Shown here: piece after piece, positions 21,180 to 39,854 of the stretch
Layout of the letters: each line of letters opens with the position of its first letter
How positions within the stretch are numbered: position 1 is the stretch's first letter
Origin: Bryobacteraceae bacterium
GTDB lineage: Bacteria; Acidobacteriota; Terriglobia; Bryobacterales; Bryobacteraceae
Direction of reading: 5' to 3'
Length of the DNA: 64,000 nucleotides
Assembly: GCA_963714395.1 (NCBI GenBank)
Contig: CAVQOO010000068.1
Coordinates: 18,728-82,727, forward strand
The notes under the pieces: generated by a model
Seen by the model: only the letters and a program-made list of their open reading frames with translations
The model's database searches: none
Told to the model about the DNA's origin: nothing
Program-made: the position numbers and the translations under genes

Positions 21180-23354
21180 ATGAACAAAACAGCTTTGATT
21201 GCAGCAGGCGTCTTTGCCGTCAGCCTCTACGCCCAAATCCCCGGCCCGAATGTCAACATGATCTCCGGAACGACCTGGCCCAATGGGGATCCGCACCTGA
21301 ACCGGCAGAACGAAGGCTCCGGCGCGGTGTCCAGCCGCAATCCCAGGACCCTGTTCGCCGGTGGAAATGACTATCGGACGGTGGACATACCTTTCCCCGC
21401 CGATGACGGGCGCGTCGTGGGCGACGCCTGGATGGGCGCCTACCGGTCCTACAATGGCGGCGAGACCTGGCTGAGTTCGCTTCTGCCGGGCTATCCGCAG
21501 GACAATTCTCCGGAAGGGGTTACCTCTCCGCTCAAAGGCTACGCGGTCGCCACGGATCCGATCGTCCAGGCGGGCACACATGGCCTCTTCTACCAGGGTG
21601 GGCTGGTATTCAACAGGGGGAATAACGCCGACAGCGCCCTTTTCGTCGCCACCTGGCAGGACCTGAACAACAAGGAGAACGGGGAGCGCATCCGCTACCG
21701 CAGGGCGGTGATTCTCGATACGGGCACGTCGGGCACCTCCCTCGATAAGCCGTGGATGGCTACCGACATTGCCCGCGGCGGGGCAGTCGGCTCGGCATCC
21801 TGCTCCTTTGACGGAGTGCTCCTTCACGAGCGGGAACCTGTATGTGATCGGCACCAAGTTTGTCGGCTTGGACCCGGGCAAGCCGCAAAACAACCCGAAA
21901 TCGCAGATCCTCGTCTACCGTTCGCAGGATTGCGGCGCCTCCTTCCCGCTTGTCACCAAGGTGAGCGAATCGATCAATTTGAGCAACGGAGCCGTGGGAG
22001 CTATCGACCCTTCCGATGGGACTCTCTATGTTGTCTGGCGGCAGTTGGCCTCAGGAAACCAGGGCGACGGGATCATCTGGACCAAGTCGACAGACGGAGG
22101 CAGAAACTTCAGCAAACTGGAAACAGCCTTCACATTCCCGGCAGGCCAGCTTTTCGACCAGGGGAGCACCACGTCGACTTTTCGCGCCCTTTCCCTGCCG
22201 TCGTTGGCGGTCGACAAAGCAGGAACGGTGTACATGACCTTCTCCCTGCGAGGGGCCCAAGGCGCCGACGCGCGGGTGGTACTCAGCACGCTCCCCAAGA
22301 ACGGCAATAACTGGACTCATCCGCTCCAGATCGACAACTATACCGGGCGCGGTCACCAGTTCTTTCCGGCCATCGCGTACGTCGGCGAGCAACTGGGAGT
22401 CCTCTTCTATGACTCCCGGGAAGACGGCACCAAAAGCGTCTTGAACTGCAGCGGGACGACGAGCGGCTGTACCGAATCACGCGTTCCAGTGAAGACCGGA
22501 CTCAACCCGCAAAGCCTTTTCACTCCGTATATCGACGACGCTGGAATGCCAGTGCGACACACAATCGACGTCCGGTTTGTGCAGTTTCCCGCAGGCACGG
22601 TGAGCTCCGCGCGCATCGGTCCGGGTTTCGCAATACAAGTACGCGGCGAATACTCTGACCGGCAAAGTCGAGCAGGTGCAGTACAACGCACCCAACTTGC
22701 CGATGTTCGTGCAGGGAACAAAGCCCTTTATCGGGGACTACATCTACCTGGCCACGCAGTTGATTGCGAGCGATGGCGGAGGCGGATGGAAGTACAACAC
22801 CGAGGCGACCAATGCGCCAGTCTTCCATGCCGTTTGGACGGACAACCGGGACGTGCAACCTCCACCTGCACGTTTGGTTGGAGGAATCTGGACTCGGGAT
22901 TGGAAGAGTATACGCCGCCGGGAACGACGAGCAGGCAAGCCTCTATGATCCGGCCCAGAACACTCCCCTCTGCGATCCGGCCAAACCGGCTTCCGGGACT
23001 CGCAACCAGAATCTCTATTACTCGCAAATCACGGGGGGGCTGGCCGTTTCGCTTAGGCAGGATTCCAAGAATCTGACATCCGGCTTCCAGCGGTCCTTCG
23101 CTATCACCGTCAGAAACAACTTCAGAGCGGCAAAGTATTACCGGCTCACAATTCAGTCGCCGGTCGGCGTGACCGCATCGTTCTCTTATTTGCAGCCTGA
23201 GTTGTCGCTCGATGTCGCCGTCCCGGCTCGCTCGTCCATTTCGCGCACGGTTTTCGTTAAGTCCGGAAACCCGAAGAGCCAGGTTAAAGTGTTGGTGCAG
23301 GAACTGATGAGCGTCGGCGGCACTCCTCTTCGGGAGGTCAACAATCTACGCTGA
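21180..23354 (+). CDS. secreted BNR/sialidase-like (beta-propeller) protein, multiple frameshifts
   Basis: Signal peptide MNKTALIAAGVFAVSLYAQ. Asp-box-like S.DGG.TW elements (SYNGGETW, STDGGRNF, SQDCGASF). The sequence is spread over ORFs 21180..22310, 21769..23076, 22676..22948 and 22764..23354. Confidence 0.5.
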
Positions 23355-23356
23355 TT

Positions 23357-23806
23357 GTGAATCCCGACATCACCAACCCGGACATCGTTAGTCCGGATAT
23401 TGTCAGTCCCGACATCGTCAACCCGGACATCGTCAGTCCCGACATCACGAATCCTCTCATCACCACCGCCGAGGTCTACAGCCCGACTATCACGAATCCC
23501 GACATCGTCAATCCGGACATCGTCAGCCCCGACATCAGCACAGTTGACATCTCAAGCCCGCAGATCGTAAGTCCGGACATTGTCAGTCCTGACATTGTCA
23601 GTCCCGACATCGTCAACCCGGATATCAGCACGTTCCAGATCATCAATCCGGATATCGTGAGTCCCGACATCGTCAGCCCCGATATTGTGAGCCCGGACAT
23701 CGTGAGCCCGGACATCGTCAACCCGGATATCACGGCTATCCGAATCGTCAGCCCGGACATTGTGAGTCCGGACATCGTGAGTCCGGACATCGGCAACCTG
23801 TCGTCA
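23357..23806. repeat. about 30 tandem 15-bp coding repeats encoding (S/N)PDIV pentapeptides
   Basis: Direct reading: ccggacatcgt(c/g)ag(t/c) units; protein NPDITNPDIVSPDIVSPDIVNPDIV... Confidence 0.9.
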
Positions 23807-26081
23807 GGCGTGACCGACTTCACGTGGAAAATCACCAACAAGGGCAACACCGGCGTCTCCTACAACGCCAAATTGCTCGAGGCGGGTCCGAAGTTCTGCT
23901 GCCCGCAGGGGTGTCAGAGCGCGGGCAACTGCCCAACGGGTTGCTACAAGTGCCAGCTGGTTCTCCGCAGGACGTATCCCACTCCGGCGGCGAACGGATG
24001 TTCTCCGACCGTGAGCGTTCAAAACATCCTGGTCTCAAGCGTTCTCAATCCGAGGCTTCTGGATGCCTCTCAGGGCGACACGCCTGACAACTCTCCCGAT
24101 GAGAAGAACTCGACTCTGGCTCTTGGGCCGGGCGAGGCGGGCCGCATGACGCTGCGGGTGTTTGGCCTCAAGACGGGGACCGTTCCACCCGGGCTCACTC
24201 AGCCTGTCGCTGTGTCCGCTTCCGGTACGGCGGCCAGCGACACTTCCGTTACAATCACAACCTTCTCATTGCCGCCAGGCATGCTGGGGCAGCCCTTCAA
24301 CCAGACCATCACGTCAATCGGCGGCTCCGGTCCACGCGAATCTGGACCGTGTACAGCGGCACACTTCCACCCGGCCTCACTCTGGACCCGTCAACGCAAT
24401 TGATCGCCGGCACGCCCGTGGCCTCGGCCTCGGCCGTGCTGTCTGGAACCCCGACTCAGGGAGGTACGTTCACTTTCACGCTTCAGGTCAAGGACACGCC
24501 GGCCGGGCGCCTGCAGTGTAGAAAAGACAGCGGACTGCGTTCAGCCTCACGTAGACCGCCAGACGTACACACTCACGGTGAACGACTTCAAGCTCTTGTC
24601 CGTGACGCCATCCAAGCTGTTTGCCAAGTCGGGAGACACGATCACGGTCACAGCGGCTGTCACTAACCTCGGTCCCGATGCGGTTGCCAATGTCGCAGCC
24701 GGTCAGCTTCAGCTCAACTCGAACGGATCGACCGCTTCCGCTTCTTGCGGACCGGCGGCGCCGGTTTCCGTGAGTCTGGCCGCCGGGGCTTCGCAGAACT
24801 TCTCCTACGTCTGCTCAGGCTTCAGCGGTAACGGCTCGGTTGCTTTCAGCACGCAGGCGTCGGCCACGCTGAACGGAGGGCCATCATTCCAAACGCCGTC
24901 TGTTGTCCTCGGCGCCGGTCGTGGTCGACAACGTGCAGCCAACATTCAGCCCGGCCGTCATCCTCTCAGGCGGCCAACCCTACACTCCTGGGCCAGGCAA
25001 CTGGACCAGCCAGAACGTAACGGTGACCTTCGCATGTACCGACAGCTCAGGGATTGCCCAACAGCCGCTGAGTCCTCAGACCTTGAGCGCCGAAGGCGCG
25101 AACCAATCCGTCTCGGCTACCTGTGCGGACAATGCCGGCAATAGCACAACCCAATCCGTGACCGGCATCAACATTGACAAGAACCAGCCGCTGATCAGCT
25201 ACACCATGTCAGCTGGCGGGGCCGTCTACACAGCGGGAACCTGGACCAATAAGGCGGTGAGCGTTCTCTTCGCTTGCACGGATACTCTCGGGGGGGCCGT
25301 GCTCGCCCCGGCTACGAATCCCCGGGTTCTGACCACGGAGGGCGCGAACCAGTCGGTGTCCGCGACGTGCACTGACATCTCCGGCAAGTCTGCTACGGCG
25401 ACTGTCTCCGGAATCAACATCGACCTGACTCCGCCGGTGATCACCATCACGACACCGGCCAACGGCGCTTCGTATACGCTGGGCGCGAGCCTGACCACGA
25501 GCTATTCCTGCACCGACCCAATGTCCCCCGTGACATCCTGCACCGGGCCAGTGGCCTCGGGCGGAACTCTGACGCTATCCACGGCCGGACCGGGATCATT
25601 CGCAGTCAGTTCGTCGAATGCCGCAGGCAATACCGCAACTGCTGCATCGAGCTACACTGTCGTCGCTCCCCCGCAGTTCACCTTCGTCGGGTATCTGACG
25701 CCGCTCAAGACCGCCGGTACCTATTCAGGAACGGCGAAACTGGGCTCGGCTGTCCCGGTTAAGTTCCAGATCCTGGACGGCTCGCGAGTCACCGTGTCGA
25801 ACATTGCTGCGGTTGCTTCCATCCGCAGTATCTTCACTGGACGCCCCACTGGCGGGACGTGCCCCATCAGTCTGGCGGGAACGAGCACGGTGCTTTACGC
25901 TCCGACAACCGGCGCCACGGGAGGCAGCACTTTCCGGATCGACACCGGGAACACTTTCATCCTGAACTGGGACTCCACGAGTGTGGCTCCCTTGGGAGTA
26001 GGATGCTACACGGTCGTAACCGAACTCGCACCAGCCTACGGGGGACTGGTCCGGTCGACGAGCATTCAATTAACTCGTTAG
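23357..26081 (+). CDS. large secreted repeat protein ((S/N)PDIV pentapeptide array plus multiple Ig-like/putative-Ig domains), several frameshifts
   Basis: GTG start at 23357. The repeat array is followed by LPPGLTL...GTP...GTFTFTLQVKD (putative Ig domain) and Thr/Ser-rich Ig-like domains in ORFs 24349..24666, 24578..25144 and 24903..26081. It may be contiguous with the upstream BNR protein. Confidence 0.45.
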
Positions 26082-32932: not shown

Positions 32933-34378
32933 GTGCTAATTTTGAAGTTTGGCTCCGCTCACGAGGCGGTTTTCGTGCAGGTATTTCTACAAGGCAAAAT
33001 CCTGGGCGCCGACGGGTTTGTCGAGGCCCACGGAAGTGATCTTCAACAACTCGGCGGGAGTTGTCTCTATATTTCCCTGCTGAGCGAGGCGGTTCCGCGC
33101 GGCCTCCTGGACGCGCTTAAACTGTCGCCGGAGCTGCTGGGCTCCAGCGGCGGCGGCCAGTTTCTTGTCCTGCTGCCAGGCGAAATCCTCGCCGAGGCCA
33201 ATGCCTACCTGACTGAAGCGACGCGACGGCTCGCGGCGTTCTCCGGCAGGCGTTTGAGGCTGGTTTGGGCCTCGACGGAGAACCTGGGAGTATGGAGCGA
33301 CGTCCGGCGCCGTCTCGACGGCGAGATGGTCCATTGGAGCGGCCTGAACGCATTGGAGCCGGACGGATTGTTCGATCCTTTCGTTGACTCACTGCAGGGC
33401 GGCGAGTGGATGGGCAGCTTGTTCGAGAGTCTGCCGGACTCGGCCGCGGCGGTGCTCGATTTCGCAGAACCCGGCTTGCTGCGGCGCGCAGGCGATCCGC
33501 ACGCCGTGGCGACGCACCGGGCATTGAACGATGCCGGGGATGCGCCTGCCACGCTGAAGGACCTGGCCGAACGAGCGCAAGGGCGCAGCGCCTGGGGGAT
33601 TCTGCGAGGCGAAATCGACCAGTATGAGTCGCGGCTGCGGCAGGCACAGAGCGTCGAGGAGTACATGCCGCTGACGGCTTTCTTCAAGCCGTTTTTCACC
33701 GGAGAAGTTCAGGTTCTGTGCATGCAGGGCGCATTCTGGCGGAAGGTGACGGTGCTATCAGCCGGCGGCAACGGCTTTGCGGTGGCCGGTTCGTGGGACG
33801 CGCTGATCGAGTTTGCGCGGGAAATGCAGCGGTTGTATCACCGGACGGCGGAGGAAGTGCTGCGCGAGCAGGCTGGTCCGGAGGCGAAAACGCTCTCGAT
33901 GGGACTCGCCCTGGCCGCGACGGCGGATTCGGCCCCCGCGCCGGTGTGGGTAGAGGCAGGACGTCAATTGAGCGTGGCAAAGTCATCTTCTCGGGACTCT
34001 ATCTCGGTATTTGGCCGTGTTGTGGATTCAAAACAGCTCGCCGAAGCCTCGGATTTGAAGAACCTGATGGTTCGCCTGGTGGACGAGTTTGGGGCAAGCC
34101 CGCAATTCCTCGGGGAGTTGGGAGCGTTTTACCGCGAAACCGACCGGGTTCTGCCGGCACGCAACCAGCAGCGGCAGGCCGATGCGCAGCAGCGTCCTTG
34201 GCGGCTGCATCGCCGGTTGAACCGCGTGCTTGACTCGGAAGGTCGCCACCGTGATTTTCAAAAGGCTCGCGCCGCAGTGCAGGCAGCGTTCCTCACGCGC
34301 GGGCAGGGACAATTGAAGCTGAGGCCCTCCGGCCGCGTCGCCCTGGAATGGGCGCGGCTGGCCAAAGAGGCGGAATAA
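32933..34378 (+). CDS. Cas10-like large subunit (two degenerate palm/cyclase-like domains, no HD domain)
   Basis: GTG start 30 nt after the flotillin stop. ...LLGSSGGGQFLVLLPGE... (near 33140-33185) and ...LSAGGNGFAVAGSWDALIEFAREMQRLYH...TLSMGLALAA (near 33756-33900) mirror the Cas10 GGDD segment (GGDDllv.g.wd.v.ela..i...f...TiSaGi), with GGDD replaced by GGGQ and GGNG. Size of 481 aa. Position at the head of a csm2-3-4-5-like operon. Confidence 0.5.
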   Translation: MLILKFGSAHEAVFVQVFLQGKILGADGFVEAHGSDLQQLGGSCLYISLLSEAVPRGLLDALKLSPELLGSSGGGQFLVLLPGEILAEANAYLTEATRRLAAFSGRRLRLVWASTENLGVWSDVRRRLDGEMVHWSGLNALEPDGLFDPFVDSLQGGEWMGSLFESLPDSAAAVLDFAEPGLLRRAGDPHAVATHRALNDAGDAPATLKDLAERAQGRSAWGILRGEIDQYESRLRQAQSVEEYMPLTAFFKPFFTGEVQVLCMQGAFWRKVTVLSAGGNGFAVAGSWDALIEFAREMQRLYHRTAEEVLREQAGPEAKTLSMGLALAATADSAPAPVWVEAGRQLSVAKSSSRDSISVFGRVVDSKQLAEASDLKNLMVRLVDEFGASPQFLGELGAFYRETDRVLPARNQQRQADAQQRPWRLHRRLNRVLDSEGRHRDFQKARAAVQAAFLTRGQGQLKLRPSGRVALEWARLAKEAE

Positions 34379-34380
34379 TA

Positions 34381-35130
34381 ATGAGCGAAATCGAAGAGCA
34401 GAACCAGAATCTTCCGGAAGAAAATCCGGAACCCAGGCCGGAGCCGGCAGTGGAAGCTCCTCAGGCCGCCGAAGCGCCTGCTGCTGAGGCTCCAGTTGCC
34501 GAGGTTTCGCCGGCGGCATCGCCCGCGGAAGCTCCGGCTGCCGCCGCCGCACCGGCGGCAGGCGAACCTAGGCCGGAGCGTCCTCCCCGCGGCGAAAGAA
34601 GCGATCGCGGACCGCGCCCGGAACGAGGACCTCGCCCTGAGCGCGGTCCCAAGCCTGAACGCAGCGAGCAGCGCCCCGAGCAACGTGGCGGCGAACGTCC
34701 AGGCGGCGGCGACCGCGGTGGAGACCGAGGCAGACCTCCGCTTCGGGGCCGGGAAGGTCCGCGCCCCGGCGGACGCCCGCCCGAGCTGATGCTGGACATC
34801 GATCTCGAAAAGCTGATTCACGACAGCCTCTATCTGGACAACCAGGCCCACACCGTCGTGGTTCGCATGCGCGACATGGACTCGGGCACCCGCAGCCAGC
34901 TTCGCCGGCTGTTCAGCGCCACCCGCCGCGCCTGCCGCGCGGTCGAGTCCGAACGGCAGCACCACTTTGTGATGCTGCGGGCACGCCTGGCCTATACGAT
35001 TGCGCGCCATCAGTTGCGCAGCCTCGATCCGCTGGAAAAGCTTCTGCTCCAGGTCACGCGAAAGAATGACCCGCGCGGCTACGAGCGTTTCCGCGATCTC
35101 TTCGAGGCCATTGTGGCCTACAACGAGTAA
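34381..35130 (+). CDS. Cas11/Csm2-like small subunit candidate with a roughly 130-aa low-complexity Pro/Glu/Arg/Ala-rich N-terminal extension
   Basis: ATG immediately after the cas10-like stop. The N-terminus is repetitive (PERGPRPERGPKPE..., GGDRGGDRGRP). The C-terminal ~110 aa look alpha-helical (LEKLIHDSLYLDNQAHTVVVRMRDM...LRARLAYTIARHQLRSLDPLEKLLLQV...FRDLFEAIVAYNE) at the position where csm2 sits in III-A operons. Confidence 0.4.
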   Translation: MSEIEEQNQNLPEENPEPRPEPAVEAPQAAEAPAAEAPVAEVSPAASPAEAPAAAAAPAAGEPRPERPPRGERSDRGPRPERGPRPERGPKPERSEQRPEQRGGERPGGGDRGGDRGRPPLRGREGPRPGGRPPELMLDIDLEKLIHDSLYLDNQAHTVVVRMRDMDSGTRSQLRRLFSATRRACRAVESERQHHFVMLRARLAYTIARHQLRSLDPLEKLLLQVTRKNDPRGYERFRDLFEAIVAYNE

Positions 35131-35155: not shown

Positions 35156-35989
35156 ATGAGTTCCCATACCGCCGATACGAAGCTCGGCCTGATCGGCAAG
35201 CTCCTGCTCGATGGCGAGCTGATTTGCGACACCGGCCTGCACATCGGTGCGGGCAAAGGCTCGCTCGATTTGGGCGGAGCCGACAATCCGGTCGTCAAGG
35301 ACGCTTTCGGGCGTCCCTACGTCCCTGGCAGTTCACTGCGGGGGCGCATCCGGGCGCTGCTCGAGCAGGCGCACGGCCACGCTGTCGCCTCCGATCTGGT
35401 CTACTTGTCGCGCCGCCGCGGACAGGAAGTCCGAATTCATCAGAGCGACGATCCGGGTGACGAAATCTGCCTGCTTTTCGGGCGCAATCCGGGCCGCATG
35501 GAGCGCGTTTCCGGAGATGCGCTGGAGCCCTCGTCGGCGACGCCAGCGAGGCTCACCGCCTATGACGCTCCGCTGGAGCTGGACTCGATTACAGTGCAGA
35601 TGCGCGAGAATCTCGACGACGAACTGACTGAGGTGAAGAGCGAAAACTCCATCGACAGGCTGACCGCGCAGGCTCTGGCACGCACATTGGAGCGCGTCCC
35701 GGCGGGGGCGAGGTTCCGGGTTCGGTTCGTGATCGACATCCTGTGCGCGGAGGACCGCGAACTGGTGTCGCCATTCGTGGCGGGCATTCGATTGCTGGAA
35801 GACGATTCGCTCGGGGGAGGCGGTTCCAGAGGCAGCGGCCGAGTGCGCTTCACGTCGTGGAAGGTCTCCTGGCGGAACAAGTCCTACTACACAGCCGCCG
35901 GCGCCGAGGCGACACTGGCCTCGGCCGGCACGACAGCCGAACTGCAAGCCGCGGTCGCCGATCAGGAATTCTCCGGACGCCTGGCCTAA
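35156..35989 (+). CDS. Cas7-group RAMP, Csm3-like backbone subunit
   Basis: RBS ggaaggag before the ATG. ...CDTGLHIGAGKGSLDLGGADNPVVKDAFGRPYVPGSSLRGRIRALLE... matches the Csm3 N-terminal signature, including the catalytic-loop Asp in G.DNP..KD and the PxxPGSSxKG motif. The C-terminal glycine-rich loop is LGGGGSRGSGRV. Confidence 0.7.
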   Translation: MSSHTADTKLGLIGKLLLDGELICDTGLHIGAGKGSLDLGGADNPVVKDAFGRPYVPGSSLRGRIRALLEQAHGHAVASDLVYLSRRRGQEVRIHQSDDPGDEICLLFGRNPGRMERVSGDALEPSSATPARLTAYDAPLELDSITVQMRENLDDELTEVKSENSIDRLTAQALARTLERVPAGARFRVRFVIDILCAEDRELVSPFVAGIRLLEDDSLGGGGSRGSGRVRFTSWKVSWRNKSYYTAAGAEATLASAGTTAELQAAVADQEFSGRLA

Positions 35990-37011
35990 TGAACCCCGCC
36001 CTGCTCGTTCGTCTCCGGCCCCTCACGCCGTGGCGCATCGGGAGCGATTCCGGCGCCCGCGAGCAGGCGTCCGCCGTGTATTCCAGCGACACTCTATTCT
36101 CGGCAGTATCCGGGGCATTCCAGCAGCTTGGCTGGCTCGAGGAGTGGCTCGGGGCCACAGTGCGGGGGGTCGAAGATCCCGCCGTGCGATTGACCAGTGC
36201 CTTTCCGTTCCAAAAGGGACTCCTGTATCTGCCGCCTCCCTCGGGGTTGTGGCCGCCGCCCGGAGAAAGCCGTGTGCGCTGGAAGGGCGCCCAACTGCTG
36301 CCCGCGCCGGTCCTGGCCGGACTGCTGCGCGGAGAGATGCCTGGCGAAGAAGAGTGGACCATTGATGGCCAGAGCGCTTGTCTCGTGCCCTCGCGACAAC
36401 GAGGGGCGGCCGGTCCGTATCGATTCCTGCGCCGCTCCCATGCGGCAGTCGACCGGCTTACCGGCGGCATCGCGGAGCCTTATTCCGTCGCTTGCACACA
36501 GTTCGCGCCTGAGGCGGGACTCTGGTGTGCCGCGGAGTTCTCTTCCCACACGGCATATGCGATCTGGTCGCCCAAACTACAGGCGGCGTTCCGGCTATTG
36601 GCCGACTCCGGACTCGGCGGCCTGCGGAGTCGCGGCTTTGGCCGTTCGCGGACCCCACTCTTCCAGGCGGGTACGCTTGCGGAATTGATCTTCGGGGCCG
36701 CGGCGCCAGTGTCTGCCGCCGCGCCTGCCGCATGGTGGCTCCTTTCGCTCTTCTCGCCTGCCGGTGACGACGCGGTCCATTGGGAACGGGGCAGTTACGA
36801 TCTCGTGACCCGCACCGGCCGCGCTGTTGACGGACGGCTGAAGCTGTCGACTCGCATGGTCCGCGAGGGAGGCGTCCTGGTTTCGGATAAGCCCTTGCGA
36901 GGCACGGCGCTCAATGCCGCTCCGCCCGAAGCGCCCCATCCATTGTGGCGCGCGGGTTTCGCCGTCGCCCTGCCGATCGCATGGTCCGGCGCTGGAAGGG
37001 GGGTGGCATGA
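35989..37011 (+). CDS. Cas5-group RAMP, Csm4-like subunit
   Basis: Start overlaps the csm3-like stop (TAATG). N-terminal ...PWRIGSDSGA...YSSDTLFSAVSGAF is Csm4-like. Glycine-rich loop GLGGLRSRGFGRS. Position after csm3 matches the III-A order. Confidence 0.6.
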   Translation: MNPALLVRLRPLTPWRIGSDSGAREQASAVYSSDTLFSAVSGAFQQLGWLEEWLGATVRGVEDPAVRLTSAFPFQKGLLYLPPPSGLWPPPGESRVRWKGAQLLPAPVLAGLLRGEMPGEEEWTIDGQSACLVPSRQRGAAGPYRFLRRSHAAVDRLTGGIAEPYSVACTQFAPEAGLWCAAEFSSHTAYAIWSPKLQAAFRLLADSGLGGLRSRGFGRSRTPLFQAGTLAELIFGAAAPVSAAAPAAWWLLSLFSPAGDDAVHWERGSYDLVTRTGRAVDGRLKLSTRMVREGGVLVSDKPLRGTALNAAPPEAPHPLWRAGFAVALPIAWSGAGRGVA

Positions 37012-38174
37012 CGCGCTACCGTCTCACAGTCTTGACGCCGATGCTGATCGGCGACGGCCAGAGATTGGCCCCGATCGATTACATGGTCTGGAAAGACCAG
37101 GTCAATGTGCTCGACCAGAAGAAGATCTTCCGGCTCCTGGCTAAAAGTCCGCGGCTGGACAGCTACCTGTCCCAAATCCGCCGGGCCGACAAGCTGGACT
37201 TCAACTCCTGGGGCGGCTACGCCCAGAACTATGCGCTGCGCCGCATTCCGCTCGAGTCCCCGGCCCTGGGCCGCGTGTTTGAGCGCACTCTGCCGGAGCA
37301 CCTCTTTCTGCCGACTTTCGCCACCACTCCCTCCGGGAGCCTCCATATCCCGGCCACCGCAATCAAAGGAGCGTTGAGGACAGCGCTGCTGACGCAACGG
37401 GCGACGAACTCCCATTGGGCACAGTTCTCTGAACGGTTGGAAGCCGCCGAACGGGCGCCCAGAAGTCCCGGCGAGATCCTGGAAGCGGCCGTTTTGGGTT
37501 CACAGGGGCAAGCCCGCACTCGGGGGTTCCTGCTGGCCGACTCGGAGCCGCGCCCCGCGGGCGGGCTGACTCGAATCTACCTGACCCGCACGGCCACCCT
37601 CGTCGATCGCGGCGGACGACTCGAACTTGGCTGGAAAACCGCGCCTCGCGGCACGCTGGACGGTAAGCGCGCCGCTGACGCAACGCCAGTCCTGGCTGAA
37701 ATGGCCATTCCGGGGAGTGTGTTCGAAGGCTCGTTCTCCGAGGCGCCATTTTTCCGCCGGACAGAGACCCTGCGCGCCCTGAACTGGAAGGAATCCCCCG
37801 GGGCGCTCCGCTATGCGGAAGCCTCAAACGCATGGGCCGCACGCTGTCTCGCCGCTCAAAGGATCTGGGCCGAGAAGGCCGCGATTCCGGCCGTCATCCG
37901 TTCACTCGATACCCTGGAAGCACGCCGCAAGGATCTGGAAGCCTCGCGCACTGGCTGCCTGGTCTGCTTGGGGTGGGGGACTGGCTATCTGCCCAAGGCC
38001 GCCGATCCGAATCCGGAAGATGAGGTCAAGGACAAAGTTCTGCGCTCGCTTCCGGTGATCGCGTCGGCCATTCGTACTGGCTTGCCCTTTCCCAAGACGA
38101 GGCGGATCGTATTCAGCGCCGATCAGCCGGCGACGCTGCCAGGCTGGGCGGCAATTCAGTTCGAACTCTCTTGA
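37008..38174 (+). CDS. Cas7-group RAMP, Csm5-like subunit
   Basis: ATGA overlap with the preceding gene. ...PSGSLHIPATAIKGALRTALLTQ matches the Csm5 P.IPGSS.KGalRt motif. Glycine-rich loop CLGWGTGY. Confidence 0.6.
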   Translation: MTRYRLTVLTPMLIGDGQRLAPIDYMVWKDQVNVLDQKKIFRLLAKSPRLDSYLSQIRRADKLDFNSWGGYAQNYALRRIPLESPALGRVFERTLPEHLFLPTFATTPSGSLHIPATAIKGALRTALLTQRATNSHWAQFSERLEAAERAPRSPGEILEAAVLGSQGQARTRGFLLADSEPRPAGGLTRIYLTRTATLVDRGGRLELGWKTAPRGTLDGKRAADATPVLAEMAIPGSVFEGSFSEAPFFRRTETLRALNWKESPGALRYAEASNAWAARCLAAQRIWAEKAAIPAVIRSLDTLEARRKDLEASRTGCLVCLGWGTGYLPKAADPNPEDEVKDKVLRSLPVIASAIRTGLPFPKTRRIVFSADQPATLPGWAAIQFELS

Positions 38175-38263
38175 AACACAGCGGAAAGCCCGATCATAGT
38201 AGTCTAGAAGGATAGTGAAGGGACACCAGTCCTTTCTTGTGGGCGGCTGTCAGCGTACCCAAC

Positions 38264-39169
38264 ATGTACAACGCTTTTTTCGGCTTTCGGGAAAATCCAT
38301 TCAACCTCAGCCCGGATCCCGCGTTCCTCTATCGAAGTCCGCAGCACGATGAGGCTCTCGCGAACCTGATCTACGGCGTTCACAGCCGGAAGGGGTTCAT
38401 TGTCCTGACCGGCGAGGTGGGTACAGGCAAGACCACTATGCTCGAGTGTCTCCGGGACTATCTGGAGGCCCAGTATATTGAGTTCGCCTTCATCTTCAAC
38501 TCCAGGATTTCGTCGGACCAGTTTTTCGAGATGATCGCCTACGATCTCGATCTCCGCTGCTCGCACAAGTCCAAGACAGAAGTCCTCTTTGCCCTCAATC
38601 ACCTACTGATCCAGCAGGCCAATCAAGGGCGCACCACGGTGCTAATCGTCGACGAAGCCCATAACCTCGAGTGGGATGTACTCGAGGAGATCCGGCTCCT
38701 GGGAAACCTGGAGAATCCGCGCCTCGGCAAACTCCTGCAGATAGTACTTGCCGGTCAGCCCGAGCTTGACCGGAAACTCGATGCCCCGAACCTCCGGCAG
38801 CTCAAGCAGCGCATCGTGCTCAGGTGTTCTCTATCTCCGTTCCAGCCGTCCGACACCGAAGCCTACATTCGAGCCCGGCTCGACAAGGCGGGCATGCCCG
38901 ATCAGAGCGTGTTTTCGGCTCCATTGATACGGGAGATTCACACGCGAAGTCAGGGGATTCCCCGCATTATCAATGCGCTCTGCGACAACATGCTCCTGAC
39001 GTGCTTCGCTCTGGAACGACGCGATGCCTCGGCTGAAATGCTCGAGGAGATCTGCAGGGACATGCGGCTCGAGTGGCCGGGGATGCCGCAAGTTCGTGGC
39101 GCACGAGGCGGATCGGATCGGCCCGGGTCTGTGGACACGACCGCTTCGCTGTCTTCTCACATGGACTGA
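38264..39169 (+). CDS. ExeA/GspA-like AAA+ ATPase (PEP-CTERM-locus ATPase-like family)
   Basis: MYNAFFGFRENPFNLSPDPAFLYRSPQHDEALANLIYGVHSRKGFIVLTGEVGTGKTTMLECL closely follows the ExeA N-terminal pattern and Walker A. Walker B is VLIVDEAHNL. Intact 301-aa ORF, 90 nt downstream of the csm5-like gene. Confidence 0.8.
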   Translation: MYNAFFGFRENPFNLSPDPAFLYRSPQHDEALANLIYGVHSRKGFIVLTGEVGTGKTTMLECLRDYLEAQYIEFAFIFNSRISSDQFFEMIAYDLDLRCSHKSKTEVLFALNHLLIQQANQGRTTVLIVDEAHNLEWDVLEEIRLLGNLENPRLGKLLQIVLAGQPELDRKLDAPNLRQLKQRIVLRCSLSPFQPSDTEAYIRARLDKAGMPDQSVFSAPLIREIHTRSQGIPRIINALCDNMLLTCFALERRDASAEMLEEICRDMRLEWPGMPQVRGARGGSDRPGSVDTTASLSSHMD

Positions 39170-39409: not shown

Positions 39410-39854
39410 ATGTCCAAGCTGCTTGGCATTAGTCTTATTTGTGCTACGCTCCTTTTGATTGGGCTTTCCGCTACTGCGGGAACGCTCCCAATTGGTACGG
39501 ATGCAAACTCTCTCTCCCTTGGCCGCGATTGCCTCCTCCCGAATCCCTGGGATGATAAGCTCTCCCTCGGCCCGATGCCTCCTCCCGAATCCCTGGGATG
39601 ATAAGCTCTTCCTCGGCCCGATGCCTCCTCCCAATCCCTGGGATGATAAGCTCTTCCTCGGCCCGATGCCTCCTCCCAATCCCTGGGATGATAAGCTCTT
39701 CCTCGGCCCGATGCCTCCTCCGAATCCCTGGGATGATAAGCTAGCAGGCCTTCTCCGCCGAATTTTGCGAACCAAAGCCGACGAGTTTCCCCCCTGGGGG
39801 GCAGCCTGTCGGCTTTCATTTTGCTTCCGATTATTATTGTGTAAGCCAAGCTGA
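39410..39854 (+). CDS. possible small secreted repeat protein (15-aa PNPWDDKLFLGPMPP units) running through the tandem repeat
   Basis: RBS-like aggtaaaacctcag before the ATG. The signal-peptide-like N-terminus MSKLLGISLICATLLLIGLSATAG is in ORF 39410..39601. Coding continuity through the repeat requires the 46-bp units to be 1-nt indel errors (ORF 39459..39854 then reads ...PNPWDDKLFLGPMPPPNPWDDKLFLGPMPP...). Confidence 0.3.
39530..39750. repeat. perfect tandem direct repeat, 45/46-bp unit, about 4.7 copies, no spacers
   Basis: Units gcctcctcc(c)(g)aatccctgggatgataagctct(t/c)cctcggcccgat begin at 39530, 39576, 39622, 39667 and 39712. The periods are 46, 46, 45 and 45, and the copies are otherwise identical. 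Confidence 0.9.

What the first reader, a model, noticed from the sequence alone, without database searches (positions are those of the whole stretch)
34381..35130. Small-subunit candidate carries a roughly 130-aa intrinsically disordered Pro/Ala/Glu/Arg-rich N-terminal extension
Cas11/Csm2 proteins are normally compact, all-helical and about 120-140 aa. This gene instead begins with a long low-complexity region (AEAPAAEAPVAEVSPAASPAEAPAAAAAPAAGEPRPERPPRGERSDRGPRPERGPRPERGPKPE...GGDRGGDRGRPPLRGREGPRPGGRP) rich in RG/RGG-like and PERG repeats, ahead of the helical C-terminal domain. Arg/Gly-rich disordered tails often bind RNA or drive condensation. This would be an unusual addition to a type III small subunit.
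Basis: partly seen in the sequence, partly recalled or inferred. Interest (0 to 1): 0.6.

Follow-up and report, generated by a model that had tools for sequence, protein, structure and literature searches.

The report
Csm2 small subunit with disordered Arg/Gly tail
The gene is a genuine type III-A CRISPR small subunit (Csm2) with a roughly 137-residue disordered Arg/Gly/Pro/Glu/Ala-rich N-terminal tail; all 80 related soil Acidobacteria (Bryobacterales) loci examined keep such a tail, which most likely acts as a flexible RNA-binding arm, though that function is untested.

Summary
ORF 34381..35130 (+) encodes 249 aa.

- **Core:** residues about 142-248 are a Csm2 helical bundle. It passes the Pfam and NCBIfam cut-offs, AF2 pLDDT is about 90, and the top 15 Foldseek PDB hits are Csm2 chains.
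- **Tail:** residues 1-141 have no predicted structure. They comprise an acidic cap, an Ala/Pro/Glu spacer (net -11) and an Arg/Gly/Pro/Glu/Asp module (net +7).
- **Context:** the gene sits in a five-gene module: HD-less Cas10 (481 aa, GGNG in place of GGDD), Csm2, Csm3, Csm4, Csm5. There is no CRISPR array, cas6, cas1/2 or csm6 nearby.

The tail is not specific to this locus. At least 224 Bryobacterales species genomes encode this Csm2. In 80 loci examined the frame between the cas10 stop and the core is always filled by a 30-197 aa tail, and a core-proximal R/G-rich module is universal. In 63 of 77 loci no alternative start exists near the core, so the tail must be translated.

Distant Csm2s in canonical III-A loci carry shorter basic or RG-rich N-termini, and one carries a cold-shock domain. 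My best reading is a non-specific RNA-binding arm beside the target-RNA-binding helices. This is inferred, not shown. I found no published description, and I rate it a new variant of a known kind.

The parts
34381..35130 (+). csm2 (cas11) gene, 249 aa plus stop
   Evidence: ORF. Family matches.
34381..34425 (+). Acidic/Gln-rich N-terminal cap, aa 1-15 (MSEIEEQNQNLPEEN, net -5)
   Evidence: The pattern M-[A/S]-[E/D]-x-[Q/E]-[Q/E]-[E/Q] recurs at the start of 68 orthologous tails of very different length. Charge profile.
34426..34560 (+). Ala/Pro/Glu-rich acidic spacer, aa 16-60 (net -6)
   Evidence: Found in tails of about 100 aa or more, including the window's nearest relatives (L001-L008, L013, L019, L031). 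The upstream parts of long tails average A 20, P 21, E 15 %.
34561..34782 (+). Arg/Gly/Pro/Glu/Asp-rich module, aa 61-134 (net about +7; PRPERG and GGDRG repeats)
   Evidence: This is the universal part of the tail. The last 40 tail residues over 70 loci are R 27, G 30, D+E 18.5, P 11 % with almost no hydrophobic residues. There is no recent DNA slippage, only one weak 12-nt repeat.
34783..34803 (+). Conserved junction, aa 135-141 (ELMLDID, family consensus PEIDLEKL), with an in-frame ATG (M138, 34792-34794)
   Evidence: Alignment A1. An ATG at this boundary occurs in 12 of 34 long-tail loci against 3 of 41 short-tail loci.
34804..35127 (+). Csm2 helical core, aa 142-249
   Evidence: AF2 helices at 142-147, 149-163, 168-186, 189-210, 213-228 and 231-248, with pLDDT about 90. 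Foldseek hits are Csm2 chains. About 70 columns are invariant among 60 orthologs.
32933..34378 (+). HD-less Cas10/Csm1 (481 aa), GGNG at the cyclase motif
   Evidence: Pfam palm2. TIGR02578 is matched only over model positions 490-750, below the cut-off. Alignment to solved Csm1 proteins places SAGGNGF on SGGDD and residues 32-88 on Csm1 positions about 262-340. Orthologs have a median length of 484 aa and mostly GGDD or GGDE.
35156..35989 (+). Csm3 (Cas7), the RNA-cleaving backbone subunit
   Evidence: TIGR02582 scores 180 bits. The GGxDNPV Asp is invariant in 78 of 78 orthologs and aligns with solved Csm3 proteins.
35989..37011 (+). Csm4 (Cas5)
   Evidence: TIGR01903 scores 109.5 bits. PADLOC Csm4 match.
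37008..38174 (+). Csm5
   Evidence: TIGR01899 scores 39.0 bits against a cut-off of 38.3. PADLOC Csm5 match at 58 bits.

Best explanation
The gene encodes the Csm2 (Cas11) small subunit of a type III-A-like effector. A translated, intrinsically disordered N-terminal tail has been added to it. The conserved functional piece is the roughly 40-75 aa Arg/Gly-rich module directly before the first helix.

Solved Csm complexes hold two or more Csm2 copies, and helices alpha2 and alpha3 line the target RNA. Each copy here would therefore project one flexible, positively charged arm next to the target-binding cleft. The proposed role is sequence-independent electrostatic capture and retention of transcripts. 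That would raise the on-rate and dwell time of target RNA on the crRNA-loaded complex, so that Csm3 can cut it. In orthologs with an intact GGDD motif, Cas10 could also signal.

In this window the tail carries an extra acidic cap and Ala/Pro/Glu spacer. These probably tune or mask the basic module.

Shown: gene identity, translation of the tail, disorder, composition and clade-wide retention. Inferred: RNA binding, the geometry in the complex, and the tuning role of the acidic half.
For: **Identity and fold.**

**The tail is coding.**
- In 69 of 75 loci the first in-frame ATG lies within -40 to +86 nt of the cas10 stop, whatever the tail length (30-197 aa). Three of the six exceptions are visible frameshifts.
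- In 63 of 77 loci no ATG, GTG or TTG exists within 10 codons of the core, and the nearest start is 26-155 codons upstream.
- An independent gene caller called the same tailed product in L081 and L082.
- The DNA shows 3-periodicity in this frame.

**Selection acts on composition, not sequence.** The core-proximal 40 aa are R 27%, G 30%, D+E 18.5% across 70 loci. No ortholog has lost the tail despite heavy indel turnover. Peptide repeats are not encoded by recent DNA repeats.

**The Csm2 N-terminus recurrently carries nucleic-acid-binding-type additions.**
- Distant Csm2s (30-45% identity) have short basic or RG-rich N-termini. These sit in canonical III-A loci with a full HD-Cas10 and Csm3-5, plus Csm6 and Cas2 in L083 and Cas6 in L085.
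- One Csm2 (P0326) carries a cold-shock domain, PF00313.

**Position in the complex.** Csm2 alpha2 and alpha3 contact target RNA, and the Arg of the (T/S)SQIR motif is needed for cleavage (PMC10289348). The equivalent Arg (R175) is invariant here.

**Consistency with the locus.** In this window Cas10 lacks HD and has GGNG. RNA binding and cutting by Csm3, whose Asp is invariant, is therefore the only predicted output. That fits an investment in RNA affinity.
Against: There is no direct biochemical evidence.

The tail is a polyampholyte. The whole window tail has net charge about -3, and the RG module is only about +10 per 100 aa. Asp or Glu sits beside most Arg residues (GDRGGDRG, PRPERG). The tail lacks the aromatic residues typical of strong RGG RNA binders, so affinity could be low.

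I could not verify from coordinates where the Csm2 N-terminus points in a Csm complex.

Length varies six-fold, which would be odd for a geometrically precise role.

No crRNA source (array or Cas6) was found near any of the 80 loci, so even the guide-dependent framework is assumed.
Confidence: 0.5

Rival explanations
1. The tail is a localisation or assembly device. As a blocky polyampholyte (acidic half, basic half) present in several copies per complex, it would drive partitioning into RNA-protein condensates or recruit host RNases or helicases (degradosome-like bodies). That would compensate for the missing Csm6, Cas6 and HD nuclease activities.
For: Charge is strongly segregated: aa 1-60 net -11 and aa 61-135 net +7. 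Csm2 is multivalent in solved complexes (PMC10289348). The RhlE2 disordered region drives phase separation and binds RNase E (PMC11260450). In at least 13 loci other members add acidic Pro/Glu-rich disordered regions to Csm4 instead, so charge-rich tails recur in this complex. No ancillary nuclease is encoded in the module.
Against: Short-tail orthologs (30-60 aa, net +3 to +4) lack the acidic block, so blockiness is not universal. No partner was identified, and no conserved neighbouring gene apart from a PEP-CTERM-type ATPase with its own promoter. No paper links Csm complexes with condensates.
Confidence: 0.2
2. The tail has no specific function. It would be a tolerated low-complexity expansion typical of GC-rich genomes, kept only because it is harmless and because the start codon is translationally coupled to cas10.
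For: Length varies from 30 to 197 aa and sequence conservation is poor. GC3 is lower than in neighbouring genes, 0.58 against 0.73-0.82. Similar acidic low-complexity extensions appear sporadically on Csm4.
Against: Every one of the 70 scorable tails is at least 30 aa. All keep the same R/G/(D/E) composition next to the core and a similar N-terminal cap. With such a high indel rate, neutral sequence should have been lost in some lineages. The signature is otherwise absent from credible ORFs in 1.6 Mb of the same genomes. The attached core is under extreme constraint, at 78-88% identity.
Confidence: 0.15
3. The tail is autoregulatory. The acidic cap and spacer would mimic nucleic acid and fold back on the RG module or on the basic RNA-binding face of Csm2, suppressing non-specific RNA binding until a cognate target displaces them. 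This resembles the acidic tips of other nucleic-acid-binding proteins; that comparison is from memory and I did not check it.
For: The acidic cap is conserved at the extreme N-terminus in all variants. The Csm2 core is strongly basic with many invariant Arg residues. Charge is segregated in the window's tail.
Against: In short-tail orthologs the acidic cap is only about 7 residues and the tail is net positive. There is no structural support: AF2 shows no contact or order.
Confidence: 0.1
4. The start is mis-assigned. The real Csm2 would begin at M138 (ATG 34792), and the 411 nt upstream would be an untranslated spacer.
For: An in-frame ATG exists at the boundary in the window and in 14 of 77 loci. 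Open frames are common by chance at 62% GC.
Against: In 63 of 77 orthologs no start codon lies near the boundary. The upstream ATG abuts the cas10 stop and has a GAGG motif. The N-terminal cap is conserved and the frame shows periodicity. There is no convincing Shine-Dalgarno motif before M138. A minor tail-less isoform made by internal initiation remains possible.
Confidence: 0.03

Closest known systems
Canonical Csm2/Cas11 of type III-A (S. epidermidis, S. thermophilus, L. lactis, E. italicus; T. maritima 5AN6)
   Same: Same helical-bundle fold (Foldseek TM to target 0.5-0.67, rmsd 2.4-3 A). Same position in the operon. The Arg of the SQ(I/L)R motif that contacts target RNA is conserved.
   Different: Characterised proteins are compact, and related database Csm2s are 119-187 aa. 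This protein adds a 137-aa disordered tail. Its core is also unusually conserved within its clade, at 78-88% identity.
Csm2 proteins with short basic or RG-rich N-termini in canonical III-A loci (P0211 in L083, P0207 in L085, P0221, P0217), and the cold-shock-domain-Csm2 fusion P0326
   Same: An N-terminal, basic or RNA-binding addition to the same domain.
   Different: Those tails are 10-55 aa, only 30-45% identical in the core, and sit in loci with a full-length HD-Cas10 plus Csm6/Cas2 (L083) or Cas6 (L085). The Bryobacterales tails are longer, obligatory across the clade, and attached to an HD-less module with no array nearby.
Disordered C-terminal regions of bacterial DEAD-box helicases (P. 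aeruginosa RhlE1/RhlE2, PMC11260450). The E. coli DeaD and RhlE tails are recalled from memory.
   Same: A disordered, Arg/Gly-rich appendage on an RNA-handling core. [quoted passage not shown]
   Different: The protein family is unrelated and the tail is at the other terminus. The Csm2 tail is richer in Asp/Glu/Pro and has near-neutral net charge. No experiment exists for it.
Type III variants with reduced Cas10 (HD-less or cyclase-inactive, for example subtypes III-C, III-D and III-F; recalled from the 2020 Makarova et al. classification, not checked here)
   Same: Cas10 lacks the HD domain, and in this window the GGDD motif is degenerate.
   Different: All five proteins score best against III-A (Csm) models. 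Most orthologs keep GGDD or GGDE.

Membership tests
Csm2 (Cas11, type III-A small subunit; PF03750 / TIGR01870) | Sequence match above the curated family thresholds | tested here: met
   PF03750 scores 41.0 bits (cut-off 24.8) over aa 153-247. TIGR01870 scores 39.9 bits (cut-off 30.6). Six PADLOC Csm2 models match.
Csm2 (Cas11, type III-A small subunit; PF03750 / TIGR01870) | Small all-helical bundle superposable on solved Csm2 | tested here: met
   The AF2 core has pLDDT about 90 and six helices. The top 15 Foldseek PDB hits are Csm2 chains, probability 0.95-1.0.
Csm2 (Cas11, type III-A small subunit; PF03750 / TIGR01870) | Encoded between cas10/csm1 and csm3 in a csm operon | tested here: met
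   Shown for the window. The same order holds in all 80 related loci.
Csm2 (Cas11, type III-A small subunit; PF03750 / TIGR01870) | Compact single-domain protein of about 120-140 aa | tested here: not met
   The protein is 249 aa, of which 137-141 aa form a disordered N-terminal tail. This is an addition to the domain, not a replacement of it.
Csm2 (Cas11, type III-A small subunit; PF03750 / TIGR01870) | Assembles as the minor filament and contacts target RNA | not testable with these tools
   The only support is indirect: the Arg equivalent to SeCsm2 R49 / ToCsm2 R96 is invariant.
[quoted passage not shown] | Cas10/Csm1 with an N-terminal HD nuclease domain | tested here: not met
   The protein is 481 aa. 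It aligns only to Csm1 positions about 262-340 and about 490-750. Orthologs have a median length of 484 aa.
[quoted passage not shown] | Cas10 Palm2 GGDD cyclase motif | tested here: not met
   The window has GGNG. Most of the 64 orthologs have GGDD or GGDE.
[quoted passage not shown] | Csm3 with catalytic Asp, plus Csm4 and Csm5 | tested here: met
   Csm3 scores 180 bits and its Asp is invariant in 78 of 78 orthologs. Csm4 scores 109 bits. Csm5 scores 39.0 bits against a cut-off of 38.3.
[quoted passage not shown] | Adjacent CRISPR array, cas6, cas1/cas2 and a csm6/CARF effector | tested here: not met
   There is no array in the 64-kb window or within about 10 kb in 80 loci. The apparent arrays are coding tandem repeats. 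Neighbouring genes are ordinary. The rest of each genome could not be searched, and not every window ORF was scanned.
RGG/RG-type RNA-binding disordered regions | Disordered segment with clustered RG/RGG motifs | tested here: met
   The commonest tripeptides are GDR, DRG, RGG, REG and GGD. The core-proximal 40 aa are R 27% and G 30%. AF2 predicts no structure.
RGG/RG-type RNA-binding disordered regions | Demonstrated RNA binding | not testable with these tools
   This needs EMSA or anisotropy measurements with and without the tail.

The most novel reading that the evidence does not exclude
The RG-tailed Csm2 marks a vertically inherited Csm module that is widespread across Bryobacterales and has no CRISPR array, cas6 or adaptation genes nearby. 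Its Cas10 lacks the HD domain. The small subunit and Csm3 are conserved like housekeeping proteins. On this reading the module has been co-opted from immunity into host RNA metabolism, for example surveillance or decay of cellular transcripts, possibly inside RNA-protein condensates. The disordered tail would be the adaptation that plugs the complex into cellular RNA or RNP bodies.
Probability: 0.15. Interest if true: 0.8.

Novelty: new variant of a known kind. Interest (0 to 1): 0.5.

Why it matters
Cas11 small subunits are regarded as minimal helical spacers that line the target strand. A clade in which every Csm2 carries an obligatory Arg/Gly-rich disordered arm suggests that target-RNA capture by type III complexes can be tuned by appendages on the small subunit. 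The shorter basic tails and the cold-shock-domain fusion in other lineages point the same way. This is directly testable by comparing complexes with and without the tail. It could also be used to raise the sensitivity of Csm-based RNA detection tools.

The host module is of separate interest. It is HD-less, has no array nearby, is absent from viral contigs and diverges in step with a neighbouring chromosomal gene. Its Csm2 core is 78-88% identical across species whose Cas10 is only 30-61% identical. That makes it a candidate for a long-term resident, perhaps repurposed, type III effector.

Tried and rejected
- **CRISPR arrays.** A k-mer chain detector flagged 'arrays' in the window and 12 loci. 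TRF showed these are coding tandem repeats (periods 39-72 nt, all multiples of 3, encoding GPxPPPxPW(D/E) units) in a small secreted-type protein downstream of the ATPase, so they are not CRISPRs. Rfam found only two tRNAs in the window.
- **A guide RNA gene beside the module.** The csm5-ATPase gap holds only a TAGAAT-type promoter for the ATPase. The cas10 upstream gaps are 30-60 nt.
- **Conserved neighbours that could be effectors.** The SPFH and FHA-GAF-PP2C genes flanking the window's module are absent from the other loci. Recurrent neighbours are VWA, oxidoreductase and the PEP-CTERM ATPase.
- **Complementarity between Csm2 tail length and the Csm4 acidic extension.** No significant rank correlation (rho -0.11, p 0.39).
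- **Exact-sequence look-ups** of the window's Csm2 (two starts) and Csm3 found nothing on record, so the source genome is not in that collection.
- **Viral contigs.** No relative found.
- **Literature.** No paper combines Cas11, 'intrinsically disordered' and type III. Papers matching Csm2 with 'N-terminal extension', or with the small-subunit/disordered/arginine-rich terms, did not by title or abstract concern a Csm2 tail. No paper links Csm complexes to condensates.
- **Recent slippage as the origin of the peptide repeats.** Only one weak 12-nt repeat was found in the tail DNA.
- **Single-sequence search of solved structures** with the core gave only marginal Csm2 hits (E about 0.07). The fold search was needed.
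Full report
**1. The observation**

Window 34381..35130 (+) is one uninterrupted ORF of 249 codons. It starts at an ATG 2 nt after the TAA of the upstream gene and follows a GAGG motif.

- Residues 1-137 are low in complexity: R 16, G 13, E 17, P 22, A 15 %, with 7% hydrophobic residues. They lie on the disordered side of the charge-hydropathy boundary, whereas residues 138-249 lie on the folded side.
- AlphaFold2 with a 60-sequence alignment predicts no secondary structure and pLDDT 48-68 for residues 1-141. It predicts six helices with pLDDT about 87-95 for residues 142-248.

**2. Identity of the folded part**

The C-terminal domain is Csm2.

- Sequence: Pfam PF03750 scores 41 bits (cut-off 24.8), TIGR01870 scores 39.9 bits (cut-off 30.6), and six PADLOC Csm2 models match.
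- Fold: the 15 best Foldseek matches in the PDB are all Csm2 chains of solved type III-A complexes (E. italicus, S. epidermidis, L. lactis, S. thermophilus). Probability is 0.95-1.0, TM to target 0.5-0.67 and rmsd 2.4-5.1 A.
- A plain sequence search of PDB chains gave only marginal Csm2 hits.
- The Arg of the SQ(L/I)R motif is invariant in this family. In solved complexes this residue contacts target RNA and is needed for cleavage (PMC10289348).

**3. The surroundings**

The gene is the second of five:

| Gene | Coordinates | Notes |
|---|---|---|
| Short Cas10 | 32933..34378 | 481 aa |
| Csm2 | 34381..35130 | 249 aa |
| Csm3 | 35156..35989 | 180 bits |
| Csm4 | 35989..37011 | 109.5 bits |
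| Csm5 | 37008..38174 | just above cut-off |

- The Cas10 aligns only to the Palm1 region (Csm1 positions about 262-340) and to Palm2/D4 (about 490-750), so it has no HD domain. It reads SAGGNGF where solved Csm1 proteins read SGGDD.
- The Csm3 Asp in GGxDNPV aligns with the corresponding GG(T/I)DNPV segment of solved Csm3 proteins and is invariant in 78 of 78 orthologs. SeCsm3 D32 is the RNA-cleavage residue according to PMC6468305.
- I found no CRISPR array in the 64-kb window, no Rfam family other than two tRNAs, and no cas6, cas1/2 or csm6 nearby.
- The flanking genes are an SPFH protein, an FHA-GAF-PP2C phosphatase, a Ser/Thr kinase and a PEP-CTERM-type ATPase.

**4. Related sequences**

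- A word-indexed search with the 116-aa core found 4198 proteins. The best 120 are all 84-90% identical and come from Acidobacteria/Bryobacterales. Nearly all are 145-203 aa, so they carry a tail.
- A species-level genome scan found at least 224 genomes, and I kept 80 loci.
- All 80 loci have the same five-gene order. The PEP-CTERM ATPase follows Csm5 in 40 of 73 loci. The SPFH and phosphatase genes are not conserved.
- Median identity to the window is: Csm2 core 84% (range 78-88), Csm3 68%, ATPase 75%, Cas10 43%, Csm4 47%, Csm5 48%.
- Divergence of Cas10, Csm3, Csm4 and Csm5 correlates with divergence of the neighbouring ATPase (rho 0.50-0.64). No relative occurs in viral contigs. Both results are consistent with chromosomal, largely vertical inheritance.
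- In a library clustered at 50% identity the family is isolated. Full-length hits are about 77-89% identical, the lower values (55-76%) coming from fragments or frameshifted gene calls. Identity then drops to 30-44%.

**5. Is the tail translated?**

- In 69 of 75 loci the first in-frame ATG lies -40 to +86 nt from the cas10 stop, often 1-4 nt away, although tails range from 30 to 197 aa.
- Of the six exceptions, three (L034, L035, L065) are frameshifts with the tail readable across two frames. Two (L025, L067) are ORFs that stay open into cas10.
- In 63 of 77 loci no ATG, GTG or TTG lies within 10 codons of the core boundary. The nearest start is 26-155 codons upstream, so the core cannot be made without a tail.
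- The first seven residues follow M-[A/S]-[E/D]-x-[Q/E]-[Q/E]-[E/Q] in 68 tails, and the junction is R-x-(E/D)-G-P-P-E-I-D-L-E-K-L.
- The tail DNA has marked codon periodicity in this frame: GC1/2/3 is 0.89/0.69/0.58 in the window and 0.87/0.66/0.64 on average over 72 loci.
- An independent gene caller called the tailed product in L081 and L082.
- Among all ORFs of at least 100 aa in the 1.6 Mb held, the R/G/(D/E) signature is confined to Csm2 genes plus about 18 other ORFs, nearly all with low GC3 and read here as out-of-frame.
- The mis-annotated-start and indel explanations are therefore rejected for the family. In the window itself an ATG at M138 leaves room for a minor tail-less isoform. 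Such boundary ATGs are enriched in long-tail loci (12 of 34 against 3 of 41, p = 0.003). This test is not corrected for phylogeny.

**6. Anatomy of the tail**

- The part universal to all loci is the core-proximal module: R 27%, G 30%, D+E 18.5%, P 11%, net about +10 per 100 aa. The commonest tripeptides are GDR, DRG, RGG, REG and GGD.
- Tails of about 100 aa or more add an upstream acidic Ala/Pro/Glu-rich spacer, net about -5 per 100 aa. These include the window's nearest relatives (L001-L008, L013, L019, L031).
- In the window, aa 1-60 carry net -11 and aa 61-135 carry net +7.
- The peptide repeats (PRPERG x3, GGDRG x2) are not encoded by recent DNA repeats. Composition is therefore maintained rather than freshly generated.
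- Tail length over 70 loci runs from 30 to 197 aa with a median of 71. The window's 133 aa, counted to the core query boundary, is long but not exceptional.

**7. Wider Csm2 family**

- Distant Csm2s (30-45% identity) often begin with short basic, RG- or N/Q-rich peptides. Examples are P0211, P0221, P0207, P0217 and the Carboxydothermus and Methylomusa proteins. By a strict R+G criterion, 14 of 128 qualify.
- P0211 and P0207 sit in canonical III-A loci with a 745-780-aa Cas10 (a weak HD hit is on record for L083) and Csm3-5. L083 also has Csm6 (faint CARF hit) and Cas2. L085 also has Cas6.
- One Csm2 (P0326) has an N-terminal cold-shock domain, PF00313.
- The Csm2 N-terminus is therefore a recurrent site for additions of a basic or RNA-binding type. 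The Bryobacterales tail is the extreme case.

**8. Mechanism**

My best reading (confidence 0.5) is that each Csm2 copy projects a flexible Arg/Gly arm beside the alpha2/alpha3 target-RNA-binding face. The arm would give non-specific electrostatic capture and retention of transcripts, and the acidic half would tune it.

- **Shown:** identity, translation, disorder, composition and retention.
- **Inferred:** RNA binding, geometry and tuning.
- **Against:** the tail has near-neutral net charge, acidic residues next to most Arg residues, no aromatic residues, and six-fold length variation. No crRNA source was found nearby.

The rivals, with my estimated confidence, are:

| Rival | Confidence |
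|---|---|
| Condensate or degradosome targeting | 0.2 |
| Neutral low-complexity expansion | 0.15 |
| Autoinhibitory acidic mimic | 0.1 |
| Wrong start | 0.03 |

**9. Comparison and novelty**

The protein is a member of the Csm2 family: sequence, fold and context features were all tested and met. It departs from the compact single-domain architecture.

The locus fails several features of a complete III-A system. The HD domain is absent. GGDD is degenerate in this window, although most orthologs keep GGDD or GGDE. There is no adjacent array, cas6, cas1/2 or csm6. I therefore describe it as a reduced III-A-type effector module.

Literature searches returned no description of a disordered tail on Cas11/Csm2. 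Public annotation simply calls these proteins Csm2. My verdict is a new variant of a known kind, with interest 0.5.

The most novel reading not excluded is that the module, which is widespread across Bryobacterales, has been co-opted for host RNA metabolism, with the tail as the adaptation (probability about 0.15).

Noticed in passing
window 32933-34378 (motif near 33749-33769): The short Cas10 of this window reads GGNG at the cyclase motif. Most of the 64 orthologs read GGDD, several read GGDE (probably including the nearest relatives, though I did not map motif variants to loci), and about ten others are degenerate. Cyclase activity therefore seems to have been lost repeatedly within the clade, while the HD domain is absent throughout.
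   Followed up: partly
L011, L012, L014, L032, L036, L047, L051, L059, L061, L069, L070, L073, L076, L081/L082 (for example L082:12350-12865): In these relatives Csm4 carries a 30-230 aa acidic Pro/Glu/Ala/Thr-rich low-complexity C-terminal extension, in L082 made of near-perfect peptide repeats. All but one (L011, 116 aa) have Csm2 tails under 100 aa. There is no significant rank correlation with Csm2 tail length.
   Followed up: partly
window 34792-34794 and the equivalent position in 14 loci: An in-frame ATG sits at the tail/core boundary and is enriched in long-tail variants (12 of 34 against 3 of 41). It could allow a tail-less Csm2 isoform by internal initiation. No clear ribosome-binding site precedes it in the window.
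   Followed up: partly
P0326 (187 aa, metagenomic): A Csm2 with an N-terminal cold-shock domain (PF00313 plus PF03750). This is an independent fusion of an RNA-binding module to the same end of Csm2.
   Followed up: no
window 39410-39854 (tandem repeat 39512-39742); also L003, L004, L014, L019, L033, L041, L052, L066, L072 downstream of the ATPase: A small ORF has a signal-peptide-like start and a 45-nt coding tandem repeat in 5 copies (GPMPPPNPWDDKL units). One 46-nt spacing splits the reading frame in the window. Similar coding repeats (period 39-72 nt) follow the PEP-CTERM-type ATPase in other genomes. My array detector first mistook it for a CRISPR-like array.
   Followed up: partly
window 23344-23823 (ORF 23357-24403): A 15-nt coding tandem repeat in about 27 copies gives a PDIVS-like pentapeptide repeat protein. 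It has only weak hits to the Pfam Extensin_1 and GLTT repeat families.
   Followed up: no
window 34780-35130 compared with the rest of the module, across L001-L080: The Csm2 core is the best conserved protein of the module (78-88% identity), ahead of Csm3 (59-82%) and far ahead of Cas10, Csm4 and Csm5 (30-63%). Its divergence does not track that of the neighbouring host gene (rho 0.06). From memory, the small subunit is usually among the least conserved Cas proteins; I did not check this.
   Followed up: partly
window 38175-38270 and the csm5-ATPase gaps of L001-L005, L013, L019, L031: A conserved (A/G)TGnTAGAATG element (extended -10-like) lies upstream of the PEP-CTERM-type ATPase. The conserved ATPase N-terminus MYNAFFGFRENPF implies that its real start is the ATG about 27 nt downstream of the TTG (38237) that opens the listed ORF.
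   Followed up: no
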